This document shows, piece after piece, positions 28,184 to 40,105 of a DNA stretch of 64,000 nt. Source of the DNA: Blastocatellia bacterium. Its GTDB lineage: Bacteria; Acidobacteriota; Blastocatellia; HR10. The notes beneath the pieces are model-generated. The model was not told where the DNA came from, did no database searches, and saw nothing but the letters and a program-made list of their open reading frames with translations. Location of the stretch: assembly GCA_035573895.1 (NCBI GenBank), contig DATLZR010000073.1:2028-66027 (forward strand). The letters are read 5' to 3'. The first letter of the stretch is position 1. Every line of letters begins with the position of its first letter. A program made the position numbers and the translations under genes.

Positions 28184-28516
28184 TCATAGGCGCAGCGTCT
28201 GGGTGAAGCATGTTCTCGTTCCCTGATGGCAGGCCACACCTGTCTGATCCACCAGGTAGATCAGCGCATCGGCATCGCAGTCAACCAGGATTTCCCTGAC
28301 CCGCTGGACATGTCCCGAAGTCGCGCCCTTGCGCCACAGCTCCCGGCGCGAGCGGCTGAAATAATGGGCATAGCCCGTCCGAAGGGTCTCTTCGACCGCC
28401 TCGCGATTGGCGAAGGCCACCATGAGGACTTCACCGGTTGTGGCATCCTGCGTGACCACGGGAATGAGCCCGTTCATTTTGGCGAAATCAAGAGCGTCAA
28501 CAGTCACCTCGCTCAT
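28184..28516 (-). CDS. hisI: Phosphoribosyl-AMP cyclohydrolase (monofunctional)
   Basis: The 110-aa ORF has [24 protein letters not shown] and CHQGTRTCF. No HisE domain is attached. Confidence 0.9.
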
Positions 28517-29283
28517 CTTCGCACCTCGATGCCTCGTTCATAAAGGTAGTGCTTAACGACCGGCAGGGGGAAGCGGTCGTAATGGAAAATGGACGCCGCC
28601 AGCGCCGCATCTGCTCCCCCGACCGTGAATGCTTCCCAAATGTGATGAGGATGACCGCAGCCGCCACTAGCAATAACAGGAATGGGCACAGCCTCCGCAA
28701 CAGCGCGTGTCAGTTCCAGATCATATCCCTGCTCCGTGCCATCACGATCAATTGATGTGAGGAGAATTTCGCCGGCTCCGAGGGCGGCCACCTCTTTGGC
28801 CCATGCGACCGCATCCCGCCCCGTCGGTTTCTTCCCCGCATGGGAGTATACTTCAAACCAGAGGTGATCTCCGTCGTACCGTCGGCGGGCATCAATGGCC
28901 ACGACGACGCATTGTTGTCCGAACAGATGACTGAGTTCGGCGACAAGTTCGGGTCTCTCCAGGGCTGCTGTATTCACCGAGATTTTATCGGCTCCGCTGC
29001 AGAGAATCGTTCGCGCATCCTCGACCGTGCGAATCCCTCCACCGACCGTAAACGGGAGATCGAGGTGCGCCGCCACCCGCCGGACAACTTCCACGAGCGT
29101 GGCGCGAGCTTCAACCGATGCCGTTATGTCGAGGAACACCAGCTCGTCAGCTCCATCATCTCGATACCGAATGGCCAATTCGACGGGATCGCCGGCGTCG
29201 CGCATCTGGCGGAAATGTGTCCCCTTGAGGACGCGCCCACGATCCACATCGAGACAAGGAATGATGCGCTTGCTTAGAGCCAT
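28513..29283 (-). CDS. hisF: Imidazole glycerol phosphate synthase, cyclase subunit
   Basis: The protein begins [21 protein letters not shown]. The start is set at ATG 29281-29283. There is a 4-nt overlap with hisI. Confidence 0.95.
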
Positions 29284-29290
29284 ACCCGAA

Positions 29291-30019
29291 CTAGTTGGAC
29301 CCGGCGTGCGACGTGAACGCCCGAAGCTCAGCGAGCCGTATCTGTCCCTCATAGACGGCTCGTCCCACGACGACGCCCTTCACCCCGATGCGCTGAAGCT
29401 CGGAGATGTCGCCGATATGGCCAATTCCTCCACTCGCAATCAGATGAATATCGGGAACAGTTGCCAGGCGTCCCAGAAGATCAAAGTCCGGTCCCGCTAG
29501 AGTCCCATCTCGGTCAACGGCGGTGACGAGAAAGTGCCGTACTCCGAGGGCTGCGAAATGACGGACCGCGTGCTCGATGGCGATTCCCGTCTCCCGCGTC
29601 CATCCCTCGATGAGGACGCGTTCGCGAGCCCCATCCAGGGCGACGACGATCCGATCACGGTCGTATCGCTCAAGGAGTCGGCAGAGGACGTCTTCATGGC
29701 GGAAAGCAAGCGTGCCCAGAACGACCCGACTCACGCCACGATCGAGCAGCTCGCACACATCTTCCTCACGCCGCAGTCCCCCACCGACCTGGACAGGGAT
29801 TTTGACTTTTTGCGCAATTTTCACCACTACCTCTCGCTGCGACCCGCGCGACAGCGCCGCATCGAGATCTACGACGTGCAGCGCCCCGGCTCCTTCCCTT
29901 GCCCACCGGACAGCCATTGCCAGGGGATCATCACCGTAGACCGTCATCTGTGACGGATCGCCTTGCCGCAACCGGACGACCCGTCCTCCGAGGATATCAA
30001 TGGCCACATAAATCTCCAT
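29291..30019 (-). CDS. hisA: ProFAR isomerase
   Basis: The protein begins [17 protein letters not shown]. The start ATG 30017-30019 overlaps the hisH stop by 1 nt (TAATG). Confidence 0.9.
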
Positions 30020-30618
30020 TACGACTTTGCCAGACGCAGAAAATTCCGCAGAATTTTCCGTCCCGTCGGACCGGATTTCTCGGGGTGAAATTGGGTACCG
30101 AAGAGACTGCCCTGCCCCACGATGGCGGGAAAGCGAACGCCGTAGCTGCACCGAGCGAGCACGATCTTCTCGTCAGCGGGTGCGGGGTAGAACGAGTGAA
30201 CGAAATAAACCCATTCGCCGTCGGCGACGCCCTCCAGCAGAGGATGGGGCTGGGCGATTTCTAGCGTATTCCATCCGATGTGAGGCACCTTCACCGACTG
30301 AGGCAAACGGACGACGCGACCCGGGAAGAGATGCAATCCTTCCCCCGGCGCTTCCTCACTCTGATCGAACAGCAGTTGCATTCCGAGGCAGATACCCAGC
30401 ACGGGGAGCCCTCGCTCGATGAGTTCCGCCAGCGACTCGCGCAGGGAGCGCACGTGTGCGGCGGCCGGTGCGAAATTCCCCACCCCAGGCAAGATCACGG
30501 CATCATAACCGCACGAGGGAAGCTCCGACACAACGAGGGGTCGCGCGCCTTCTCGTTCGAGAGCCGAGCGCAGGCTGAAAAGGTTTCCCACCCCGTAATC
30601 CAGGATCACGATGCGCAT
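30019..30618 (-). CDS. hisH: Imidazole glycerol phosphate synthase, glutamine amidotransferase subunit
   Basis: MRIVILDYGVGNLFSL is present. The catalytic Cys lies in GICLGMQLL, and the FHPEKS motif is present. Confidence 0.95.
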   Translation of the reverse strand: MRIVILDYGVGNLFSLRSALEREGARPLVVSELPSCGYDAVILPGVGNFAPAAAHVRSLRESLAELIERGLPVLGICLGMQLLFDQSEEAPGEGLHLFPGRVVRLPQSVKVPHIGWNTLEIAQPHPLLEGVADGEWVYFVHSFYPAPADEKIVLARCSYGVRFPAIVGQGSLFGTQFHPEKSGPTGRKILRNFLRLAKS

Positions 30619-30621
30619 CTT

Positions 30622-31197
30622 TCAGATCACCCCTTTGGAACTCGGAACACCCGACCGGCGCGGATCGGCTGACACTGCCTGTCGGAGAGCCAGCGCGAGC
30701 GCCTTCACCCCGGCCTCGACCTTATGGTGATCGTTCTCGCCATAGTGTACGATGACGTGGATTGTCGCTTCAAGCGCCGTCGCCAGCGATCGCAGGAAAT
30801 GATAGATATCCTCCCGCGGCATATCTTCCACGCCGTCTCTCTCGATCTTCAGGTCAACTACCGCATACGGACGACGCGCAAGATCAACACTGGCTGAGGC
30901 GAGAGCATCATCCAGCGGCACAACCGCCCATCCGAAGCGAGAGATTCCTTCCCGCCCTCCCAATGCCCGATTGAGGGCCTCGCCAACCGCCAGCGCCGTA
31001 TCCTCGACGATATGATGCACGAGATCCCCGTCCGCCGATACCTCCAGATCAAAGAGCGCGTGGTGGCCGATCAACTCCAGCATGTGTTTGAGAAAGCCAA
31101 TTCTCGTCCGGACGGATGCGGCCCCCGTCCCCTCAATACGAACGGTGGTCGTGATTTCCGTCTCGCGTGTCTTTCGCTCAACGTGACCGGTGCGCAT
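30622..31197 (-). CDS. hisB: Imidazoleglycerol-phosphate dehydratase (monofunctional, no phosphatase domain)
   Basis: The 191-aa ORF has RKTRETEI, HHIVEDTALAVGEA and the His-rich motifs of IGPD. Confidence 0.95.
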   Translation of the reverse strand: MRTGHVERKTRETEITTTVRIEGTGAASVRTRIGFLKHMLELIGHHALFDLEVSADGDLVHHIVEDTALAVGEALNRALGGREGISRFGWAVVPLDDALASASVDLARRPYAVVDLKIERDGVEDMPREDIYHFLRSLATALEATIHVIVHYGENDHHKVEAGVKALALALRQAVSADPRRSGVPSSKGVI

Positions 31198-31204
31198 AGG
31201 GTCC

Positions 31205-32392
31205 TCACCTTTTTAACGAAGACAGGACGCCGGGCAGCTCATTGACCGAAGGGAGAATGAGCGCCGCTCCGGCATCCATGAACAGGCGGATCCTGGCTCC
31301 CGGGTTGTAGCCATAACGATAGACTCCACAAAAGAGGCATCGAATGCCGCTCATCTCCGCCCGCCTGACCATGATGAAATCTTCGGCGGAATCGCCGACA
31401 TACAGCAGTGCCGGTGGATGACCGAGTGCACTCCTGGCTTTCAGCAATCCATAGGGACTCGGTTTTCCGATGGACTCCGCGTGTTCCCGGTCATATTCGT
31501 CTTCGAGAAAGACGAGCGCCGACGAGTCAAAGACAGTCAGCCGATCACCGAGCGTTTTCTCGGCGGTACTACGGCGCCGACCGGACACAATGCCAAGCCG
31601 TCCAGAGAAAAGAGCAGCTAAGCGACGACCGACAGTGTCGGTGAGAATCGGTCGCTCGTGATCCACACACCCCGACCCGCGAGCGAATCGCGGTTCGATC
31701 CCGAAGACGGTGCGACAGTACTCCTCTCCATAGAAAAACTCATTGAAAACCGTGACGACGAGACTCTCGCCCATTGCTCCGGGATAGGCGAGAAATCGCT
31801 GAAACGCTGAAAGGGCGGTGAGCTTCCAGGAAGGAAGTTCCCATGACTCACGGATCTGTCGTTCGACCGATGGCAAGCCAGAGCTATCGGCTGCGTCCGC
31901 CAGCGCCAACAAACGGGCACGCGCCTGGTGGACATTGAGCGGCGAGCGCCATCGAATCGCTTCGACGAAAGCATCCTTCCGCCTGATCTCTCGCACGTAG
32001 GCGATCAGCCGCTCGGTCGCCTCCGTGATAAAGGCCCCCCCCAGGTGCTCATCGGTCTCCAGAAAAACTCGTAGCAGCGCGTCATCAAGTTGAACAAACG
32101 TCCCCAGCAAAAGAGCACATACCGTATCCCAATCGTTGTTGAACCCGCCGCTCTGGCGAAAGCGATAAATCATGCGCCGGGTCGCCAGCGGGGAAAAATC
32201 CCGGTAGAAGAGTTTGCTGAGGAGGTATCGAACGGTTCGACTTATGGCCACATCGTACGAGGGACGAACATCAATAAGTACCCCGTCGCAATCGAAAACG
32301 AGAGCAGAAATCGAAGCAAGTGCCTCCCGTTCGTCCGCGCGAATGTAGGCACGTCCCCCCTCCGTCGGGACTTCGGAGTAGACGACGTTCAT
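31205..32392 (-). CDS. HAD-superfamily hydrolase with a very large cap insertion; candidate histidinol-phosphate phosphatase
   Basis: HAD motif I is FDCDGVLID, motif II GIVSGR, motif III GKPSP and motif IV YVGDSAEDF. The start ATG 32390-32392 overlaps the hisC stop (ATGA), and the stop lies 7 nt before the hisB start. Confidence 0.75.
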   Translation of the reverse strand: MNVVYSEVPTEGGRAYIRADEREALASISALVFDCDGVLIDVRPSYDVAISRTVRYLLSKLFYRDFSPLATRRMIYRFRQSGGFNNDWDTVCALLLGTFVQLDDALLRVFLETDEHLGGAFITEATERLIAYVREIRRKDAFVEAIRWRSPLNVHQARARLLALADAADSSGLPSVERQIRESWELPSWKLTALSAFQRFLAYPGAMGESLVVTVFNEFFYGEEYCRTVFGIEPRFARGSGCVDHERPILTDTVGRRLAALFSGRLGIVSGRRRSTAEKTLGDRLTVFDSSALVFLEDEYDREHAESIGKPSPYGLLKARSALGHPPALLYVGDSAEDFIMVRRAEMSGIRCLFCGVYRYGYNPGARIRLFMDAGAALILPSVNELPGVLSSLKR

Positions 32393-33483
32393 CTCAAACA
32401 CTCCCTCAGAGTCTCGACGACGAGATCGTTCACCTCCGGGACGCCCACCGTTATTCGCAAACAGCCCGACCAACCGAGAACGTCCCCGACGAGCTTGATT
32501 CGAATTCCCCGATCGGCGAGCGCCGAAAGGATTCCTTCAGCTCCGTCCCCAGCGGCCAAGAGAAGAAAGTTTGTTTGCGATGGGAACACCGTCAGTCCCA
32601 ACTGAAGGAGACGATGCCGCAATCGCTCGCGCTCGGCCTTCAGCGCGTCCACGGCCCCACGAACGATCGCCGGTTGAGCGAGAAGCTTCACCGCCAGCCG
32701 AAGAGCAAAGGCATTCAGGGGATAGGGGTATTGAACTTTCTCCGCGAAGACGCGAATCAGTCTCGGGCGACCGATCATGTACCCGAGACGCATTCCGGCA
32801 AGTCCCCACGCCTTGGACATCGTCCGGAGAATTACGACATTGTCATACTCCCTCACGAGATCAGCCAGGCTCTCCTCGGCATACTCGACATAGGCCTCGT
32901 CAACGACGACGAGCGCCGATCTATCAGCAATCAGTTGTTCCACATCGCGACGAGCCAATGAGTTTCCCGTCGGATTATTGGGCGAGCAGAGGAAAAGCAG
33001 TCGGGCTGCCGGTGCGGCTAGTTCTTTTCGCATCCTCTCAACATCCAGCGAGAAATCAGGACGAAGAGGAACCTCGATGAACCGAGCGCCTGTCAGCCGA
33101 CTTCGAATGCGATAAAACGAATAGGTGGGAGTGACCGATACCGCCGTCGTCGTCGGACCGAGGAAAACATCGCACAGGAAGGCGATGAGCTGATCTGCTC
33201 CGGAACCCAGGAGAATATGATCTTCCGGGAAACCTGTTGTCGCTGCGAGCGCTGAAACAAGTGCGGCATAGTCCGCTGCGGGATAGAACCGAGGATCCAC
33301 CTCCCGAGCGACTTCATCCATGAGCGACGCCATGAGCGTTTCGGGGAGATAGCTGTTTTCATTGGCATCGAGTTTCCCTCGAGGGTGAATCCCATCAGAT
33401 CCCGCCCCGGCCCACGGCAAAGGATACCCTTCGGCCAGCGCCAGTTCCTCAAGCCGCCTGTCGAACCAGTCCTTCACCTTCAT
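32389..33483 (-). CDS. hisC: Histidinol-phosphate aminotransferase
   Basis: The 364-aa class II aminotransferase has LCSPNNPTGN, and the PLP lysine lies in RTMSKAWGLAGMRLGY. Confidence 0.9.
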   Translation of the reverse strand: MKVKDWFDRRLEELALAEGYPLPWAGAGSDGIHPRGKLDANENSYLPETLMASLMDEVAREVDPRFYPAADYAALVSALAATTGFPEDHILLGSGADQLIAFLCDVFLGPTTTAVSVTPTYSFYRIRSRLTGARFIEVPLRPDFSLDVERMRKELAAPAARLLFLCSPNNPTGNSLARRDVEQLIADRSALVVVDEAYVEYAEESLADLVREYDNVVILRTMSKAWGLAGMRLGYMIGRPRLIRVFAEKVQYPYPLNAFALRLAVKLLAQPAIVRGAVDALKAERERLRHRLLQLGLTVFPSQTNFLLLAAGDGAEGILSALADRGIRIKLVGDVLGWSGCLRITVGVPEVNDLVVETLRECLR

Positions 33484-33558
33484 TCTCGATCACGACGCGT
33501 TCCGTTTATCACCGTTCGAAATGCTGGGGGCGACGACCCCCGCGGCGGTTCAGTGAAC

Positions 33559-34893
33559 TCAATCGTCTCTCCAACGCCTCGCGAGCGCCGCATAATGATT
33601 GGGCAGCCCTTCGGCCCGCGCCAAAAATCCCACAGGCGTGACAAAACGATCGAGCGTTGAATCGGAACACTCAACGGCTGTCATCCGCTTGAGGAAATCG
33701 AATGCGGAAAGACCAGATGCCCGACGAGCCCATCCACCGGTCGGAAGAACGTGGTTGGTCCCCACCACATAGTCAGTCAGTACCACCGATGTATCCGTTC
33801 CCACCAGAATCAATCCCGCTGACGTAATGCGACGGGCAACCTCCCATCCATCTTTCATCATGATTTCGAGGTGTTCGGGCGCGAACTCGTTGACGAACTG
33901 GATGAGGCGATCAACATCCTCATCGTAGACCACGAACCCATGCGTCCTCAGTGCGGTCATCACAAGTTCGCGCCGAGCTACGCCGGGCAGAAGCTGGGCG
34001 ATCATTTCCCTGACTTCCTCGGCCAGTGCTCGGGATGTTGTGACCAGACCGCAGACGCTATCCTCACCATGTTCTGCCTGGGAGATGAGGTCCCAGGCGA
34101 TGGCGCGGGCATGACCTGTGTCATCGGCGAGCACCACCAGCTCCGATGGTCCGGCTGGCATATCAATCGCGACCCGATCAGACACAAGCTGTTTGGCCAT
34201 GGCGACGACGGAACTGCCGGGACCAACGATCTTCTCCACCGGCTGAATCGTCTCCGTCCCAAAGGCCATGGCGGCGATGGCCTGTGCCCCGCCGATGCGA
34301 TAAATCTCATCTACCCCACATTGATCGGCGGCCACGAGCACGAGCGGATGAACCTTTTTTGTTCCATAGACCGGCGGCGTACACAACACAACCCGACGCA
34401 CGCCTGCCAGTTTCGCGGGAATCACGCTCATCAAAACCGAGCTGGGGTAGACGGCCTTCCCTCCAGGGACATAGCAGCCGACACTCGAGAGAGGAGCATA
34501 CCAACTGCGAATCACCACGCCCTGCCGATGAATCTCCCGAACCGGGAGGCGACGGAGCCAGGCGCGCTCGGCTTTTTCGATATTTTTCCGGGCGAGCGTC
34601 AACGCCTTCAGCTCGTCCCGCGAAACGGCTAGATAAGCACGCTCGATCTCTCGCCGAGAGACGCGAAGATCCGACGGACGGAGCGACACCCCATCGAATT
34701 TCTTCGCCCATCGGATAAGAGCACGATCGCCCTTATGAGCGACATCCATGAGGATTCGCTCGACGTCCAAACGCAACTTCGGCAGTGATGGCCGACGATT
34801 CAGCCGGCGGGCGAGAAGCTGTCGAACCGAGAGATGACCTCTCGCCGGACGCGAGTCGAGCCGTTCGAGGCGAAGAATCTCACGACTTCTCAT
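33559..34893 (-). CDS. hisD: Histidinol dehydrogenase
   Basis: The 444-aa ORF has YVPGGKAVYPSSVLM, SQAEHGEDS and VGTNHVLPTGG. Confidence 0.95.
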   Translation of the reverse strand: MRSREILRLERLDSRPARGHLSVRQLLARRLNRRPSLPKLRLDVERILMDVAHKGDRALIRWAKKFDGVSLRPSDLRVSRREIERAYLAVSRDELKALTLARKNIEKAERAWLRRLPVREIHRQGVVIRSWYAPLSSVGCYVPGGKAVYPSSVLMSVIPAKLAGVRRVVLCTPPVYGTKKVHPLVLVAADQCGVDEIYRIGGAQAIAAMAFGTETIQPVEKIVGPGSSVVAMAKQLVSDRVAIDMPAGPSELVVLADDTGHARAIAWDLISQAEHGEDSVCGLVTTSRALAEEVREMIAQLLPGVARRELVMTALRTHGFVVYDEDVDRLIQFVNEFAPEHLEIMMKDGWEVARRITSAGLILVGTDTSVVLTDYVVGTNHVLPTGGWARRASGLSAFDFLKRMTAVECSDSTLDRFVTPVGFLARAEGLPNHYAALARRWRDD

Positions 34894-35866
34894 AAGCTTC
34901 GTCCCGGGCGATTTCTTCCAGCGGGAGGATCTGGCGCGGCTCGTGCACCACCAGCCCCTGCGCGAGTTGCCGTAACACGGGCAGCAGGGTGAGGAACTCT
35001 TGTTTCTCCACCACGGTATTCACAGAATACCACCCCTTAACCGAGAGCGCGCTTATCGTCGGTCGCTTCAAGGCCGGTAATCGCTGGAGCAGCGTGTCGA
35101 GATTTTCCTCCTTGACGTTGACGAAGATGTGGAGTTTCTTAGCGCCGTCAATGACGCCCTTCAAAAGCGTCATGATGTCATAAATTTTCTCCCGCTTGGC
35201 CCGCTGCCGTAGCGCCTGACGATTGGCGATGAGAACGGCCGAAGACTCAAGGATCGTCTCAATGGCTTTGAGGTTATTGCGCTCCAGCGTAGTTCCCGTT
35301 TCAATGAGATCAATGATGGCATCCGTATCTTCAGGAGGCTTGGCCTCGGTGGCCCCAAAGGACAGGTAAATCCTGACCTTGTCATTTGTGCCCCGCCGCC
35401 ACCAGGGAGTGATTACCATCGGTTCCCGCTTGCCGAAGGCTCTACGGTAGGTGGGATTGGCCTTGACGTACTCTGCCGAGATGTTGAGATACTCCGCGGA
35501 AATGCGCACCGGTTTCCCCTGCCGCCAGAAGTGACGAAAGAGATCGGACAGCGACGTCACGGGTAAGGTGGTCGGCACGGCAATGACGAGTTTTACCTTT
35601 CCGTACTCGAGATCGAGAAGGGTCTCGACGTTGGCGTGGGTCTCCTGAATCCAATCCTGACCCGTAATGCCCACATCGTGAAGTCCTTCGGCAACGAAGA
35701 TCGGGATCTCCTGCGGGCGAAGCATCTTCAGCTCGATCTCGGGATCGCTAATTCGTGGCCGGTAAGTCCGCTCCCGGCCCGAGATCGTGTACCAAGCTCG
35801 TTCCAGCAAGTCAAACGTTGCTTTTTCGAGCGACCCTTTCGGGATGGCGAATCGAACTCTACTCAT
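34880..35866 (-). CDS. hisG: ATP phosphoribosyltransferase, long form with C-terminal regulatory domain
   Basis: The protein begins MSRVRFAIPKGSLEKATFDLL, and DLIETGTTLERNNL is present. It overlaps hisD by 14 nt. Confidence 0.9.
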   Translation of the reverse strand: MSRVRFAIPKGSLEKATFDLLERAWYTISGRERTYRPRISDPEIELKMLRPQEIPIFVAEGLHDVGITGQDWIQETHANVETLLDLEYGKVKLVIAVPTTLPVTSLSDLFRHFWRQGKPVRISAEYLNISAEYVKANPTYRRAFGKREPMVITPWWRRGTNDKVRIYLSFGATEAKPPEDTDAIIDLIETGTTLERNNLKAIETILESSAVLIANRQALRQRAKREKIYDIMTLLKGVIDGAKKLHIFVNVKEENLDTLLQRLPALKRPTISALSVKGWYSVNTVVEKQEFLTLLPVLRQLAQGLVVHEPRQILPLEEIARDEAYEKS

Positions 35867-35955: not shown

Positions 35956-35985
35956 AATTTAAGAGGATCATCGGGCGACTGTCAA
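35956..35985 (-). promoter_or_regulatory. Candidate sigma70-type promoter of the his operon
   Basis: On the minus strand: TTGACA (35980-35985), a 17-nt spacer, then TTAAAT (35957-35962). The site is about 90 nt upstream of the hisG ATG. No His-codon leader peptide was seen. Confidence 0.3.
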
Positions 35986-36683: not shown

Positions 36684-36768
<85 letters not shown>

Positions 36769-37109: not shown

Positions 37110-37868
37110 TCACCTCGCGTAATTCACGATCTCCGCGAAAGTCCGCGCCTCCAGGCTCGCTCCCCCGACCAAAGCACCATCAACATCAGGCTGACTCATA
37201 AGCTCGCCAATATTATCCGGCCTGACGCTCCCTCCGTAAAGAATTCGCACGGCGTCGGCCGTCACTTTCCCAAAAATTCGCGCGATGAGACGGCGAATGA
37301 ATTCATGCATCACCTGCGCTTGTTGCGGCGTGGCCGTTTTCCCCGTCCCAATCGCCCATACCGGTTCGTAGGCGATGATCATATTGGACATATCCTCGTC
37401 TGTCAAGCCAGCCAATCCCCCGGCGATTTGCTGTTCGACAACAGCGAACTCCCGTCCGGCCTCTCTTTCAGGCAGGGTTTCCCCTACACAGACGATTGCC
37501 TTCAGGCGACCCTCCAACGCGGCTCGTATCTTTCGGTTGACCATCTCATCGGTTTCTCCGTAAAAGAGCCGACGTTCCGAGTGACCGATGATGACGTATT
37601 CGCACCCGGCATCCCGCAGCATGGCGGCGCTCACCTCGCCTGTTCGCGCGCCGAATCCCCCGATATCGCAGACGTTTTGAGCGGCGACCTTAATCGCTGA
37701 CCCATCCAGTCGGTCAGCAACCGCCCGTAACGCCGTAAACGGTGGGGCAACAATAACCAGACAGTGCGAGACGTGTCCAACCAGTGATCGAAGTTCTCGC
37801 GCAGTTTCCGTCGCCTCCGGTAGAAGTTTATGCATCTTCCAGTTTCCCGCGATAATTGGCTGCCGCAT
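37110..37868 (-). CDS. tpiA: Triosephosphate isomerase
   Basis: [16 protein letters not shown] and [11 protein letters not shown] are present. Confidence 0.95.
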
Positions 37869-37888
37869 TGACCAATCCCCTCGCTCCT

Positions 37889-39076
37889 CTAAGTCTTCTC
37901 TGTCAGTGCCGCGACACCTGGAAGATCCACGCCGGCCAGGAACTCCAGCGTTGCACCACCACCCGTTGAGAGATGCGTGATTCGGTCCGCAACTCCCGCG
38001 CGATGAATCGCGGCCACGGAATCCCCTCCACCGACAATAGTGACTCCCTCCACCGATGCCACTTCATGCGCCAGCGCCACCGTCCCCTGATCGAACGGTG
38101 GGCGTTCAAAGACGCCAACGGGCCCGTTCCAGATCACCGTTCGAGCCTGACGAATCCTTTGCCCGAACAACTCAATCGTGGTCGGGCCAATGTCCATACC
38201 TATTGCTGAAGGGGGAAAGGCGTCTCCGCTCACAACGCGAGGGGGTGCCGTGGGATCGGTTGAATCAACAACCACATGGTCAACCGGTAATACGAGGGGA
38301 ACCTGTCGAGCCTCCGCCCTCACAAGCAAATCACGAGCTGTGGAGACGTAATCTGTTTCAACCCGAGACGCCCCGACGTCTCCTCCCCGGGCCACCAGGA
38401 AGGTGTAGGCCATGGCTCCCCCAATCAGGATGGCATCCGCGTGATTGAGAAGATTCGTCAACACGGGAATCTTATCCGAAACCTTCGCTCCCCCCAAGAG
38501 AACAACAAAGGGATGCTCCGGATGAGTGAGCGCACGACCGAGATAGTCTAATTCCCTTTCCATGAGCAAACCGGCAGCGGCCACCGGCACAAAGGACGTG
38601 ATTCCGACTGTCGAGGCATGGGCTCGGTGGGCCGTCCCGAAGGCGTCGTTGACATAGAGATCGGCCAGCCGCGCCAGGGAGCGAGCGAATTCGGGATCAT
38701 TTTTCTCTTCGCCCGGATGAAATCGCAGATTTTCCAAAAGGAGAACGTGTCCTTCGGCAAGGCTGCTCGCCAGGGCCTCGACCTCTGGACCAACGCAATC
38801 CAGAGCGAACGTGACGATCGGTCCGAGCCGCTCGGTGAGCACATCGGCCACGGGCCGAAGGGAATACCGAGAGTCACGCTGACCTTTGGGGCGTCCCAAA
38901 TGAGACGCAACGATCACTCGGGCGCGGCGCTCTATCAGGTAGCGAATGGTCGGAAGTGACGCGTCAATCCTGGAGGCATCGGTGACGCGCCCGGCCTCGA
39001 TCGGGACATTAAAGTCAACCCGAAGGAAGACGCGCTTGCCGCACAGATCGAGATCTCTCACCGACAGTTTCGCCAT
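37889..39076 (-). CDS. pgk: Phosphoglycerate kinase
   Basis: [16 protein letters not shown] and [11 protein letters not shown] are present. Confidence 0.95.
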
Positions 39077-39079
39077 ACC

Positions 39080-40105
<1,026 letters not shown>

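What the first reader, a model, noticed from the sequence alone, without database searches (positions are those of the whole stretch)
31205..32392. Large-cap HAD hydrolase embedded in the his operon: candidate for the missing histidinol-phosphate phosphatase
The operon hisG-hisD-hisC-X-hisB-hisH-hisA-hisF-hisI (35866 down to 28184, minus strand) encodes a monofunctional 191-aa HisB with the dehydratase domain only. No PHP-type (HisK/HisJ) or IMPase-type (HisN) phosphatase is present in the operon.

Gene X (395 aa) has all four HAD motifs: FDCDGVLID, GIVSGR, GKPSP and YVGDSAEDF. About 240 residues are inserted between motifs I and II, an unusually large cap that usually dictates substrate specificity.

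Its ATG overlaps the hisC stop (ATGA at 32389-32392) and it ends 7 nt before hisB, so it is almost certainly co-translated with the pathway. It also sits between the enzyme that makes histidinol phosphate (HisC) and the rest of the pathway. It is not simply the detached HAD domain of the bifunctional enterobacterial HisB, which is much shorter.
Basis: partly seen in the sequence, partly recalled or inferred. Interest (0 to 1): 0.6.

Follow-up and report, generated by a model that had tools for sequence, protein, structure and literature searches.

The report
Archaeal-type histidinol phosphatase in acidobacterial operon
The gene between hisC and hisB very probably encodes the histidinol-phosphate phosphatase of this soil or hot-spring acidobacterium, but it belongs to an enzyme family already proven in archaea in 2008 and 2024; the one fresh point is that the whole nine-gene histidine operon looks borrowed from archaea.

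Summary
Window 31205-32392 (minus strand) encodes a 395-residue HAD hydrolase with all four catalytic motifs and a helical cap of about 200 residues. It sits in hisG-D-C-X-B-H-A-F-I, with ATGA overlap to hisC and 7 nt before a dehydratase-only hisB.

X is a full-length homologue (29% identity, E 2e-51) of the Nitrosopumilus proteins that occupy the same hisC-hisB slot. Kinateder et al. 2024 (PMC10804674) showed in vitro that this protein, nmHisN (Nmar_1556), is a specific histidinol-phosphate phosphatase. X carries the published specificity fingerprint in its Thermococcus (toHisN) form: Y46, D47, R79, D87, plus I50 and I75. The genome holds no PHP-type HisJ, no HisN above cut-off and no fused HisB-N.

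In Acidobacteriota, full-length X turned up in only one order (11 of 12 genomes) among about 400 sampled. X, HisD and HisG all group with TACK archaea, not with other Acidobacteriota. The whole operon was therefore probably acquired from archaea and is now the genome's only his pathway.

Verdict: a new (bacterial) member of a known kind. Earlier notes of this scan reached a similar reading on other genomes. Activity is untested.

The parts
31205..32392 (-). Gene X: 395-aa HAD-superfamily phosphatase, nmHisN/toHisN-type histidinol-phosphate phosphatase (predicted)
   Evidence: Translation. Pfam PF00702 and sub-threshold TIGR01548. 29% identity and E 2e-51 to the Nitrosopumilus orthologue. AF2 model with pLDDT 92.8.
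32282..32296 (-). HAD motif I, FDCDG (residues 33-37; nucleophile D34 and acid/base D36)
   Evidence: Invariant in 18 of 18 and 83 of 83 family members.
31658..32266 (-). Single all-helical C1 cap (about residues 43-245, some 11 helices) inserted after motif I
   Evidence: DSSP on the AF2 model. The best PDB fold matches are the large-cap HADs 1qyi and 6iah.
32252..32257 (-). Fingerprint residues Y46-D47, equivalent to Y24-D25 of nmHisN
   Evidence: Alignment counts. The published alanine scan is in PMC10804674.
32132..32158 (-). Fingerprint residues R79 to D87 in the RQSGGFNND motif, equivalent to K56 and E64 of nmHisN and to R and D in toHisN
   Evidence: The spacing I75(+4)R79(+8)D87 equals the published I52-K56-E64 spacing.
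31931..32092 (-). Cap segment (residues 101-154, two to three helices) present in the long form (this genome, Bathyarchaeia, Nitrososphaerales) and absent from the characterised short Nitrosopumilus form
   Evidence: Gap map of the 83-sequence alignment. Helices H104-117, H125-137 and H140-148.
31577..31594 (-). HAD motif II, GIVSGR (S270)
31463..31465 (-). HAD motif III lysine, K310
   Evidence: Invariant.
31376..31396 (-). HAD motif IV, GDSAEDF (D334, D338)
32389..33483 (-). hisC, histidinol-phosphate aminotransferase, which makes the presumed substrate; its stop overlaps the X start (ATGA)
   Evidence: TIGR01141 at 292 bits, above cut-off; junction.
30622..31197 (-). hisB, monofunctional imidazoleglycerol-phosphate dehydratase (no phosphatase domain)
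   Evidence: PF00475 only, 191 aa; it is the only IGPD in the genome.
28184..35866 (-). Whole operon hisG-hisD-hisC-X-hisB-hisH-hisA-hisF-hisI, of TACK-archaeal type
   Evidence: Pfam. Identical gene order in Bathyarchaeia, Nitrososphaerota and Jordarchaeia loci. HisG is 70% identical to Bathyarchaeia and at most 40% to the rest of its own class. HisD tree and AU test.
35956..35985 (-). Sigma-70-like promoter match (TTGACA-18-TAAATT) about 90 nt upstream of hisG; a consensus match only

Best explanation
Gene X encodes the histidinol-phosphate phosphatase (HolPase, EC 3.1.3.15) of this acidobacterium. It is a member of the nmHisN/toHisN family of HAD-superfamily HolPases.

Proposed mechanism. 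The Rossmann-like core supplies the usual Mg2+-dependent aspartyl-phosphate chemistry, inferred from HAD enzymology: D34 as nucleophile, D36 as acid/base, S270 and K310 binding the phosphate, and D334/D338 binding the metal. The single large helical cap closes over the site. The cap residues Y46, D47, R79 and D87 (with I50 and I75) would recognise the imidazole and amino groups of L-histidinol phosphate made by HisC. This role is inferred from the published alanine scan of the Nitrosopumilus enzyme.

The gene is translationally coupled to hisC and lies 7 nt from hisB, so it is made together with the pathway enzymes.

The whole nine-gene operon, X included, was most probably acquired from a TACK archaeon (Nitrososphaerota-like). 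The recipient would have been the ancestor of one acidobacterial order. The operon is now the only his pathway in the genome.
For: Shown here:
1. The ORF, its motifs and its junctions.
2. Full-length homology to the Nitrosopumilus proteins in the same hisC-hisB slot: 29% identity, E 2e-51. All 37 Nitrosopumilales sequences carry Y-D-K-E with the published spacing. They are therefore orthologues of the enzyme assayed in PMC10804674 (kcat 0.79 per s, KM 73 uM, no activity on nine other phosphoesters).
3. X and all 8 sequences of its order carry Y46-D47-R79-D87 plus I50 and I75. This is the YDRD variant that the paper reports for the proven Thermococcus onnurineus enzyme and for 14% of its cluster I.
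4. Sequence match to PDB 6iah, a Thermococcus HAD phosphatase: profile E 1e-20, single sequence E 5e-9, with YD, R and D aligned.
5. A confident AF2 model (pLDDT 92.8) with one all-helical cap; the best folds are 1qyi and 6iah.
6. The hisG-D-C-X-B-H-A-F-I order is conserved in about 70 of 80 loci across four archaeal lineages and this order. X is present in 11 of 12 genomes of the order.
7. The genome (97% complete) has no HisJ match and no HisN above cut-off. Its one IMPase (180 bits against a cut-off of 275) is the paralogue found in 60 of 61 class genomes and scores better as SuhB.
8. The only HisB-N-like HAD is GmhB, which lies between a heptose kinase and a heptosyltransferase. The small PHP protein is TrlF-like.
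9. hisE exists elsewhere in the genome, so X need not replace it.

For the archaeal origin of the operon:
- X nests inside a Nitrososphaerota clade (SH-aLRT 97), which lies within the TACK clade (100).
- HisD of the order nests among TACK archaea, away from 29 other Acidobacteriota. The AU test rejects the alternative, p 0.0006.
- HisG is 70% identical to Bathyarchaeia and at most 40% to the rest of its class. Its named best hits are Nitrososphaerales and Bathyarchaeia.
- Other Acidobacteriota have hisC directly followed by hisB.
Against: - No enzyme assay or genetic test exists for this protein or for any bacterial or long-cap member.
- Identity to the characterised short Nitrosopumilus form is only 29%. 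X also has about 55 extra cap residues (101-154, 188-193) whose effect on specificity is unknown.
- X scores 64 bits on TIGR01548, below the cut-off of 140. The Nitrosopumilus orthologue also fails, at 91 bits.
- I could not obtain the N. maritimus sequence itself. The numbering match required a one-residue offset between Y24 and K56.
- I could not inspect model coordinates, so the position of the fingerprint residues at the active site of X is inferred, not measured.
- The IMPase paralogue and GmhB could still provide some HolPase activity; relatives of both are known to do so.
- The trees are quick searches (SH-aLRT only) with compositional heterogeneity. The AU test was chosen after the tree was seen.
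Confidence: 0.85

Rival explanations
1. X is a HAD phosphatase with a different or broad substrate range (for example sugar phosphates, phosphoserine or a nucleotide-derived intermediate). In this reading it only rides in the his operon, and the real HolPase is another enzyme.
For: HAD caps change specificity readily. X has two to three extra cap helices compared with the assayed enzyme. From my own recollection of the 6iah paper, which is not held in the library, the crystallised Thermococcus relative was described as having diverse substrates. X is below the TIGR01548 cut-off.
Against: The specificity fingerprint and accessory residues are all kept, 8 of 8 in the order. The hisC-X-hisB position is conserved from Jordarchaeia to Acidobacteria. 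The assayed orthologue rejected nine other phosphoesters. No other HolPase passes a cut-off in the genome.
Confidence: 0.08
2. The IMPase-family protein on contig C166 (or GmhB on C52) is the physiological HolPase, and X is redundant or regulatory.
For: IMPase-family HisN enzymes are genuine HolPases in Actinobacteria and plants. The C166 protein scores 180 bits on TIGR02067. From the abstract and evolutionary-model text of PMC9798254, HisB-N and GmhB share an ancestor and a promiscuous HolP side activity is invoked for the GmhB-like precursor.
Against: The 180-bit IMPase is below the HisN cut-off (275) and scores higher as inositol monophosphatase (218 bits). It is not his-linked. It occurs in 60 of 61 class genomes whether or not they also have a 243-293-bit HisN-like copy or X. 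GmhB sits in an LPS-heptose cluster.
Confidence: 0.05
3. The operon is archaeal DNA wrongly binned or assembled into a bacterial genome.
For: All nine proteins are closest to TACK archaeal proteins outside the order. One other 'bacterial' hit (L042, Krumholzibacteria, a 4-kb contig) is nearly identical to a Bathyarchaeia sequence and is probably misbinned.
Against: The operon lies inside a contig of over 100 kb. Its flanking genes are typically bacterial: PBP4B-like, an EPS polyprenyl glycosylphosphotransferase, and gap-pgk-tpi with type I GAPDH. GC is even at 0.56-0.60 across the operon and flanks. It is the genome's only his pathway. It recurs in 11 of 12 genomes of the order, with divergence that tracks family and order.
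Confidence: 0.01

Closest known systems
nmHisN (Nmar_1556), HolPase of Nitrosopumilus maritimus (Kinateder et al. 2024, Protein Sci, PMC10804674)
   Same: HAD core with one large helical cap after motif I. Gene lies between hisC and hisB in hisG-D-C-X-B-H-A-F-I. Homologous over the full length to Nitrosopumilus orthologues (29% identity, E 2e-51). Y, D and both accessory Ile residues of the fingerprint are identical.
   Different: X has R79 and D87 where nmHisN has K56 and E64; the paper reports these conservative changes as compatible with activity. The cap is about 55 residues (two to three helices) longer. The host is a bacterium. X is untested biochemically.
toHisN, monofunctional HolPase of Thermococcus onnurineus (Lee et al. 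2008, J Bacteriol 190:2629, cited), and its crystallised relative Tt82 of T. thioreducens (PDB 6iah)
   Same: Same fingerprint variant, Y-D-R-D. Same family by profile search (E 1e-20) and by fold.
   Different: These proteins are about 240 aa with a cap of about seven helices, against 395 aa and about eleven helices in X. Only about 20% identity.
NCBIfam TIGR01548 (HAD-SF-IA-hyp1), the euryarchaeal 'cluster II' relatives
   Same: It is the best NCBIfam hit and spans X residues 30-345 end to end on the model.
   Different: X scores 64 bits against a cut-off of 140. The model is 197 positions long, so most of X's cap is insertion. According to the paper, cluster II has Arg at the D47 position, as do the Chloroflexi and delta-proteobacterial homologues seen here.
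HisB-N of E. coli/Salmonella and paHisN (PA0335) of Pseudomonas aeruginosa
   Same: HAD-superfamily HolPases with the same core chemistry.
   Different: Unrelated caps. HisB-N has a small zinc-binding loop cap and paHisN has two small insertions. X gives no TIGR01261 or TIGR01656 hit. The paper concludes that these enzymes arose independently.
PDB 1qyi, uncharacterised 380-aa large-cap HAD protein of Staphylococcus aureus
   Same: Best structural match (Foldseek E 6e-11, TM 0.60-0.62). Similar size and cap.
   Different: 19% identity. Function unknown. Only the C-terminal half matches by sequence profile.

Membership tests
nmHisN/toHisN-type HAD histidinol-phosphate phosphatases | HAD catalytic motifs I-IV intact | tested here: met
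   D34, D36, S270, K310, D334 and D338 are present. D34, D36, K310 and D338 are invariant in all 83 aligned family members; the motif II position is S or T, and D334 is N in 6 of the long archaeal forms.
nmHisN/toHisN-type HAD histidinol-phosphate phosphatases | Single large all-helical cap inserted directly after motif I (C1 cap), with no second insertion | tested here: met
   AF2 model with pLDDT 92.8. Helices only from residue 43 to about 245, then the core strands. Fold hits 1qyi and 6iah.
nmHisN/toHisN-type HAD histidinol-phosphate phosphatases | Specificity fingerprint Y24-D25-K56(R)-E64(D) from the published alanine scan | tested here: met
   Y46-D47-R79-D87 in X and in 8 of 8 sequences of its order. 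The control group of 37 Nitrosopumilales sequences shows Y-D-K-E. Definition from PMC10804674.
nmHisN/toHisN-type HAD histidinol-phosphate phosphatases | Accessory hydrophobic residues I28 and I52 | tested here: met
   I50 and I75, 8 of 8 in the order.
nmHisN/toHisN-type HAD histidinol-phosphate phosphatases | Significant full-length sequence homology to the characterised enzyme's orthologues | tested here: met
   BLASTP 29% identity over residues 16-391, E 2e-51, against Nitrosopumilus sp. P0121. The N. maritimus sequence itself was not available.
nmHisN/toHisN-type HAD histidinol-phosphate phosphatases | Gene located between hisC and hisB in a his cluster | tested here: met
nmHisN/toHisN-type HAD histidinol-phosphate phosphatases | Mg2+-dependent, specific hydrolysis of L-histidinol phosphate | not testable with these tools
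   Needs an enzyme assay or complementation.
nmHisN/toHisN-type HAD histidinol-phosphate phosphatases | Fingerprint side chains within contact distance of the substrate pocket | not tested
The placement is inferred from the docking described in the paper.
NCBIfam TIGR01548 (HAD-SF-IA-hyp1) | Score at or above the curated cut-off of 140.2 bits | tested here: not met
   64.2 bits. The Nitrosopumilus orthologue scores 90.9, and Bathyarchaeia and Blastocatellia homologues 65-76. X is a relative of the family, not a member by this cut-off.
HisB-N / GmhB (HAD-IIIA, TIGR01261 and TIGR01656) | Match to the HisB N-terminal domain models | tested here: not met
   No hit at E 0.01 or better for X. The genome's only such protein is GmhB on contig C52.
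HisN (IMPase-type, TIGR02067) and HisJ/HisK (PHP-type, TIGR01856) | IMPase fold or PHP fold | tested here: not met
   X matches only HAD models and folds as a HAD.

The most novel reading that the evidence does not exclude
A complete nine-gene histidine operon of TACK-archaeal type, including the archaeal HolPase and a long-form HisG, crossed the domain boundary into the ancestor of one order of Blastocatellia-like Acidobacteriota. There it displaced the native bacterial pathway. The rest of the class has a differently built hisG-D-C-B cluster with a distant, mostly short HisG and no gene between hisC and hisB. The long-cap form of the phosphatase (extra helices at residues 101-154) may also differ from the assayed short form in specificity or regulation.
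Probability: 0.65. Interest if true: 0.5.

Novelty: new member of a known kind. Interest (0 to 1): 0.35.

Why it matters
Histidinol-phosphate phosphatase is the step most often left unassigned in histidine biosynthesis. GapMind 2026 still misses it in 20% of prototrophs (PMC13759103).

Annotation pipelines call this protein only 'HAD family hydrolase' or 'phosphoglycolate phosphatase-like', and no NCBIfam model names it. Recognising X as an nmHisN-type HolPase closes the pathway for this acidobacterial order. It also shows that the published archaeal fingerprint can be carried over to bacteria.

The apparent wholesale replacement of a bacterial amino-acid operon by an archaeal one is a tidy, testable case of inter-domain pathway transfer. 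It does not reveal a new kind of enzyme or mechanism.

Tried and rejected
- **N. maritimus sequence.** I looked for the N. maritimus protein itself. The paper's supplements are not held, and no hit was named N. maritimus. Nitrosopumilus sp. orthologues were used instead. The published residue numbers fit them only if the annotated start lies 17 residues inside the longest ORF, with a one-residue offset before K56.
- **Detached HisB-N domain.** Rejected: no model hit.
- **X replacing the missing hisE.** Rejected: a PRA-PH gene lies on contig C91.
- **PHP protein on C142 as HisJ.** Rejected: no TIGR01856 match, and the best hits are TrlF-like.
- **C52 HAD-IIIA as HisB-N.** Rejected: it is GmhB in a heptose cluster.
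- **Complementary distribution of X against HisN in the class.** Only partly informative. HisN-like copies (243-293 bits) occur in some families. Many class genomes show neither X nor a HisN-like copy, so their HolPase remains unknown.
- **Rfam scan of the window.** It found only two tRNAs and no leader or riboswitch at the operon.
- **Alignment script.** One script was killed by the sandbox and was rerun with lighter settings.
- **Literature searches.** They found no paper on an acidobacterial or TACK his-operon transfer, and no paper other than PMC10804674 on nmHisN.

Full report
**Observation.** Window 31205-32392 (minus strand) is an uninterrupted 395-codon frame. The longest ORF runs back to a TTG at 32473. 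The ATG at 32392 is the better start. It forms ATGA with the hisC stop and has a GGGAG 8 nt upstream. The encoded N-terminus also aligns from its first residues with 17 homologues. The stop at 31207-31205 is followed by 7 nt and then the hisB ATG. Pfam and NCBIfam confirm the surrounding genes as hisG (long form), hisD, hisC, hisB (dehydratase domain only, 191 aa), hisH, hisA, hisF and hisI (cyclohydrolase only). X matches the HAD Pfam model only in its C-terminal third. It gives a sub-threshold, end-to-end match to TIGR01548 (64 bits, cut-off 140).

**What it is.** A search of 5.8 billion proteins found several hundred homologues of 380-405 residues. Where named, they come from Thaumarchaeota/Nitrososphaerota, Bathyarchaeia and Aigarchaeota, with a few bacteria.

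Scanning one genome per species gave 80 loci. In about 70 of them the gene order is exactly hisG-D-C-X-B-H-A-F-I. These include Bathyarchaeia, Nitrososphaerales, Nitrosopumilales, Caldarchaeales and a Jordarchaeia genome.

The literature then supplied the key. Kinateder et al. 2024 (PMC10804674) followed an earlier remark (Fondi et al. 2009) about an uncharacterised hydrolase gene between hisC and hisB in Thaumarchaeota. They purified Nmar_1556 of Nitrosopumilus maritimus and showed that it is a monomeric, Mg2+-dependent HolPase: kcat 0.79 per s, KM 73 uM, and inactive on nine other phosphoesters. They named it nmHisN and related it to the Thermococcus onnurineus HolPase toHisN (Lee et al. 2008). 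By alanine scanning they defined a cap fingerprint, Y24-D25-K56-E64, with accessory residues I28 and I52. toHisN carries the variant Y-D-R-D.

**Membership.** The Nitrosopumilus proteins in my loci are about 324 residues long. All 37 carry Y-D-K-E with the published spacing, so they are the orthologues of the assayed enzyme. X aligns with one of them over residues 16-391 at 29% identity, E 2e-51.

X has Y46, D47, I50, I75, R79 and D87. That is the Y-D-R-D variant with both accessory isoleucines. The same holds in all eight sequences of its order.

The Chloroflexi and delta-proteobacterial homologues show Y-R-K-D. This reproduces the paper's description of its cluster II and delta-proteobacterial groups, which is a useful internal check on my alignment.

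A profile of the family hits PDB 6iah, the phosphatase Tt82 of Thermococcus thioreducens, at E 1e-20. X alone hits it at E 5e-9, with YD, R and D aligned.

AlphaFold2 gives a confident model (pLDDT 92.8, pTM 0.88). It shows an N-terminal beta-hairpin, a HAD core and a single all-helical cap from about residue 43 to 245. Foldseek ranks the large-cap HAD 1qyi first and 6iah second.

Compared with the assayed short form, X has about 55 extra cap residues (101-142, 148-154, 188-193), which is two to three helices. Bathyarchaeia and Nitrososphaerales share this feature. No NCBIfam model claims these proteins; even the Nitrosopumilus orthologue reaches only 91 bits on TIGR01548.

**Other candidates in the genome.** The assembly is 97% complete.
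- It has no match to the PHP-type HisJ family.
- Its one IMPase-family protein scores 180 bits on HisN (cut-off 275) and 218 bits on inositol monophosphatase. It lies next to an acidobacterial VWA gene, not next to his genes.
- The same roughly 180-bit paralogue is present in 60 of 61 genomes of the class. Some other families carry an additional 243-293-bit HisN-like copy; the window's order does not.
- The only HisB-N-like HAD is GmhB, which sits between a heptose-7-phosphate kinase and a heptosyltransferase.
- The small PHP protein resembles TrlF N-termini.
- hisE is present on another contig, so X is not needed for that step.
- HisA, HisF, HisB, HisD and HisG are all single-copy, so this operon is the working pathway.

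**Origin.** The genome is acidobacterial. The nearest named locus is an uncultured Blastocatellia MAG. The genome encodes the acidobacterial VWA family. The operon's flanks are bacterial: PBP4B-like, an EPS glycosylphosphotransferase and gap-pgk-tpi. GC is even across the operon and its flanks.

Among 401 Acidobacteriota genomes, a full-length X was found only in the window's genome and in one other genome of the same order. Within that order, 11 of 12 genomes have it; the exception is 78% complete.

The evidence that the operon is archaeal in origin is as follows.
- The window's HisG is 81-83% identical within its family and 70-71% within its order. It is at most 40% identical to the rest of its class, whose HisG frames are mostly short.
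- That same HisG is 70% identical to a Bathyarchaeia HisG. Its best named hits in the large database are Nitrososphaerales and Bathyarchaeia.
- Other Acidobacteriota have hisG-D-C-B with no gene between hisC and hisB.
- In a tree of X rooted on the distant bacterial homologues, the order falls inside a Nitrososphaerota clade (SH-aLRT 97) within the TACK clade (100).
- In a HisD tree, the order (99) nests among TACK archaea and away from 29 other Acidobacteriota.
- An AU test rejects the tree in which archaeal HisD forms a clade without the order (p 0.0006).

The caveats are these. The trees are quick searches. Many rows have a deviant composition. Bacterial sampling outside Acidobacteriota is thin. 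The AU test was chosen after the tree had been seen. With these limits, a single old transfer of the whole operon from a TACK archaeon into the order's ancestor is the most economical reading.

**Verdict.** X is very probably the HolPase, working as a Mg2+-dependent HAD phosphatase whose helical cap reads the imidazole and amine of histidinol phosphate. It is not a new kind of enzyme. The family was proven in Thermococcus in 2008 and in Nitrosopumilus in 2024, and its position between hisC and hisB was already the clue used there. Earlier notes of this scan reached a like reading for similar genes on other genomes. What this case adds is a bacterial, long-cap member and evidence that it arrived with an entire archaeal-type his operon. 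No assay exists for any long-cap or bacterial member, so the function remains an inference, though a strong one.

Noticed in passing
L042:2360-3430 compared with L038:5001-6071: The X homologue on a 4-kb contig binned as Krumholzibacteriaceae is almost identical to a Bathyarchaeia sequence (branch lengths about 0.05 in the tree). The contig is probably misbinned, not a true bacterial copy.
   Followed up: partly
L038:641-1756 and L038:5001-6071: One Bathyarchaeia locus carries two X paralogues: one in the usual hisC-hisB slot and a second just downstream of hisI.
   Followed up: no
L119 (G410:C42:24400-34200): In a second family of the same order the operon is split. hisG-D-C-X are together, but no hisB-H-A-F-I follows within about 5 kb.
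   Followed up: no
class-level genomes: Many genomes of the class have neither X, nor a HisN-like IMPase above about 240 bits, nor a PHP HisJ. Their histidinol-phosphate phosphatase is therefore still unassigned. A second IMPase paralogue of about 140 bits is common there.
   Followed up: no
phylum sample: 27 of 61 sampled Acidobacteriota genomes gave no HisD match at E 1e-30 with the window's HisD, although most are over 90% complete. They may be histidine auxotrophs or carry very divergent HisD.
   Followed up: no
G293:C148:415-672, G227:C50:28587-28775 and others (L088-L094): Several other Acidobacteriota have weak matches (42-55 bits) to only the N-terminal motif I and fingerprint region of the family, in ORFs of 257-845 aa. 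These may be short-cap or fused relatives.
   Followed up: no
window 37110-40087 (-): A bacterial-type gap-pgk-tpi glycolytic gene row lies directly upstream of the his operon region. A tRNA gene at 36687-36768 (-) lies between them.
   Followed up: partly
PDB 1qyi (Staphylococcus aureus, 380 aa): The best structural match to X is an uncharacterised structural-genomics HAD protein with a similarly large cap. Its function appears never to have been assigned.
   Followed up: no
window 28184-28516 and G000:C91:35931-36179: hisI in the operon is cyclohydrolase-only. The pyrophosphohydrolase (hisE-like, PRA-PH, 57 bits) is encoded on another contig inside a 239-aa open frame, so it may be fused to or preceded by another domain.
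   Followed up: no
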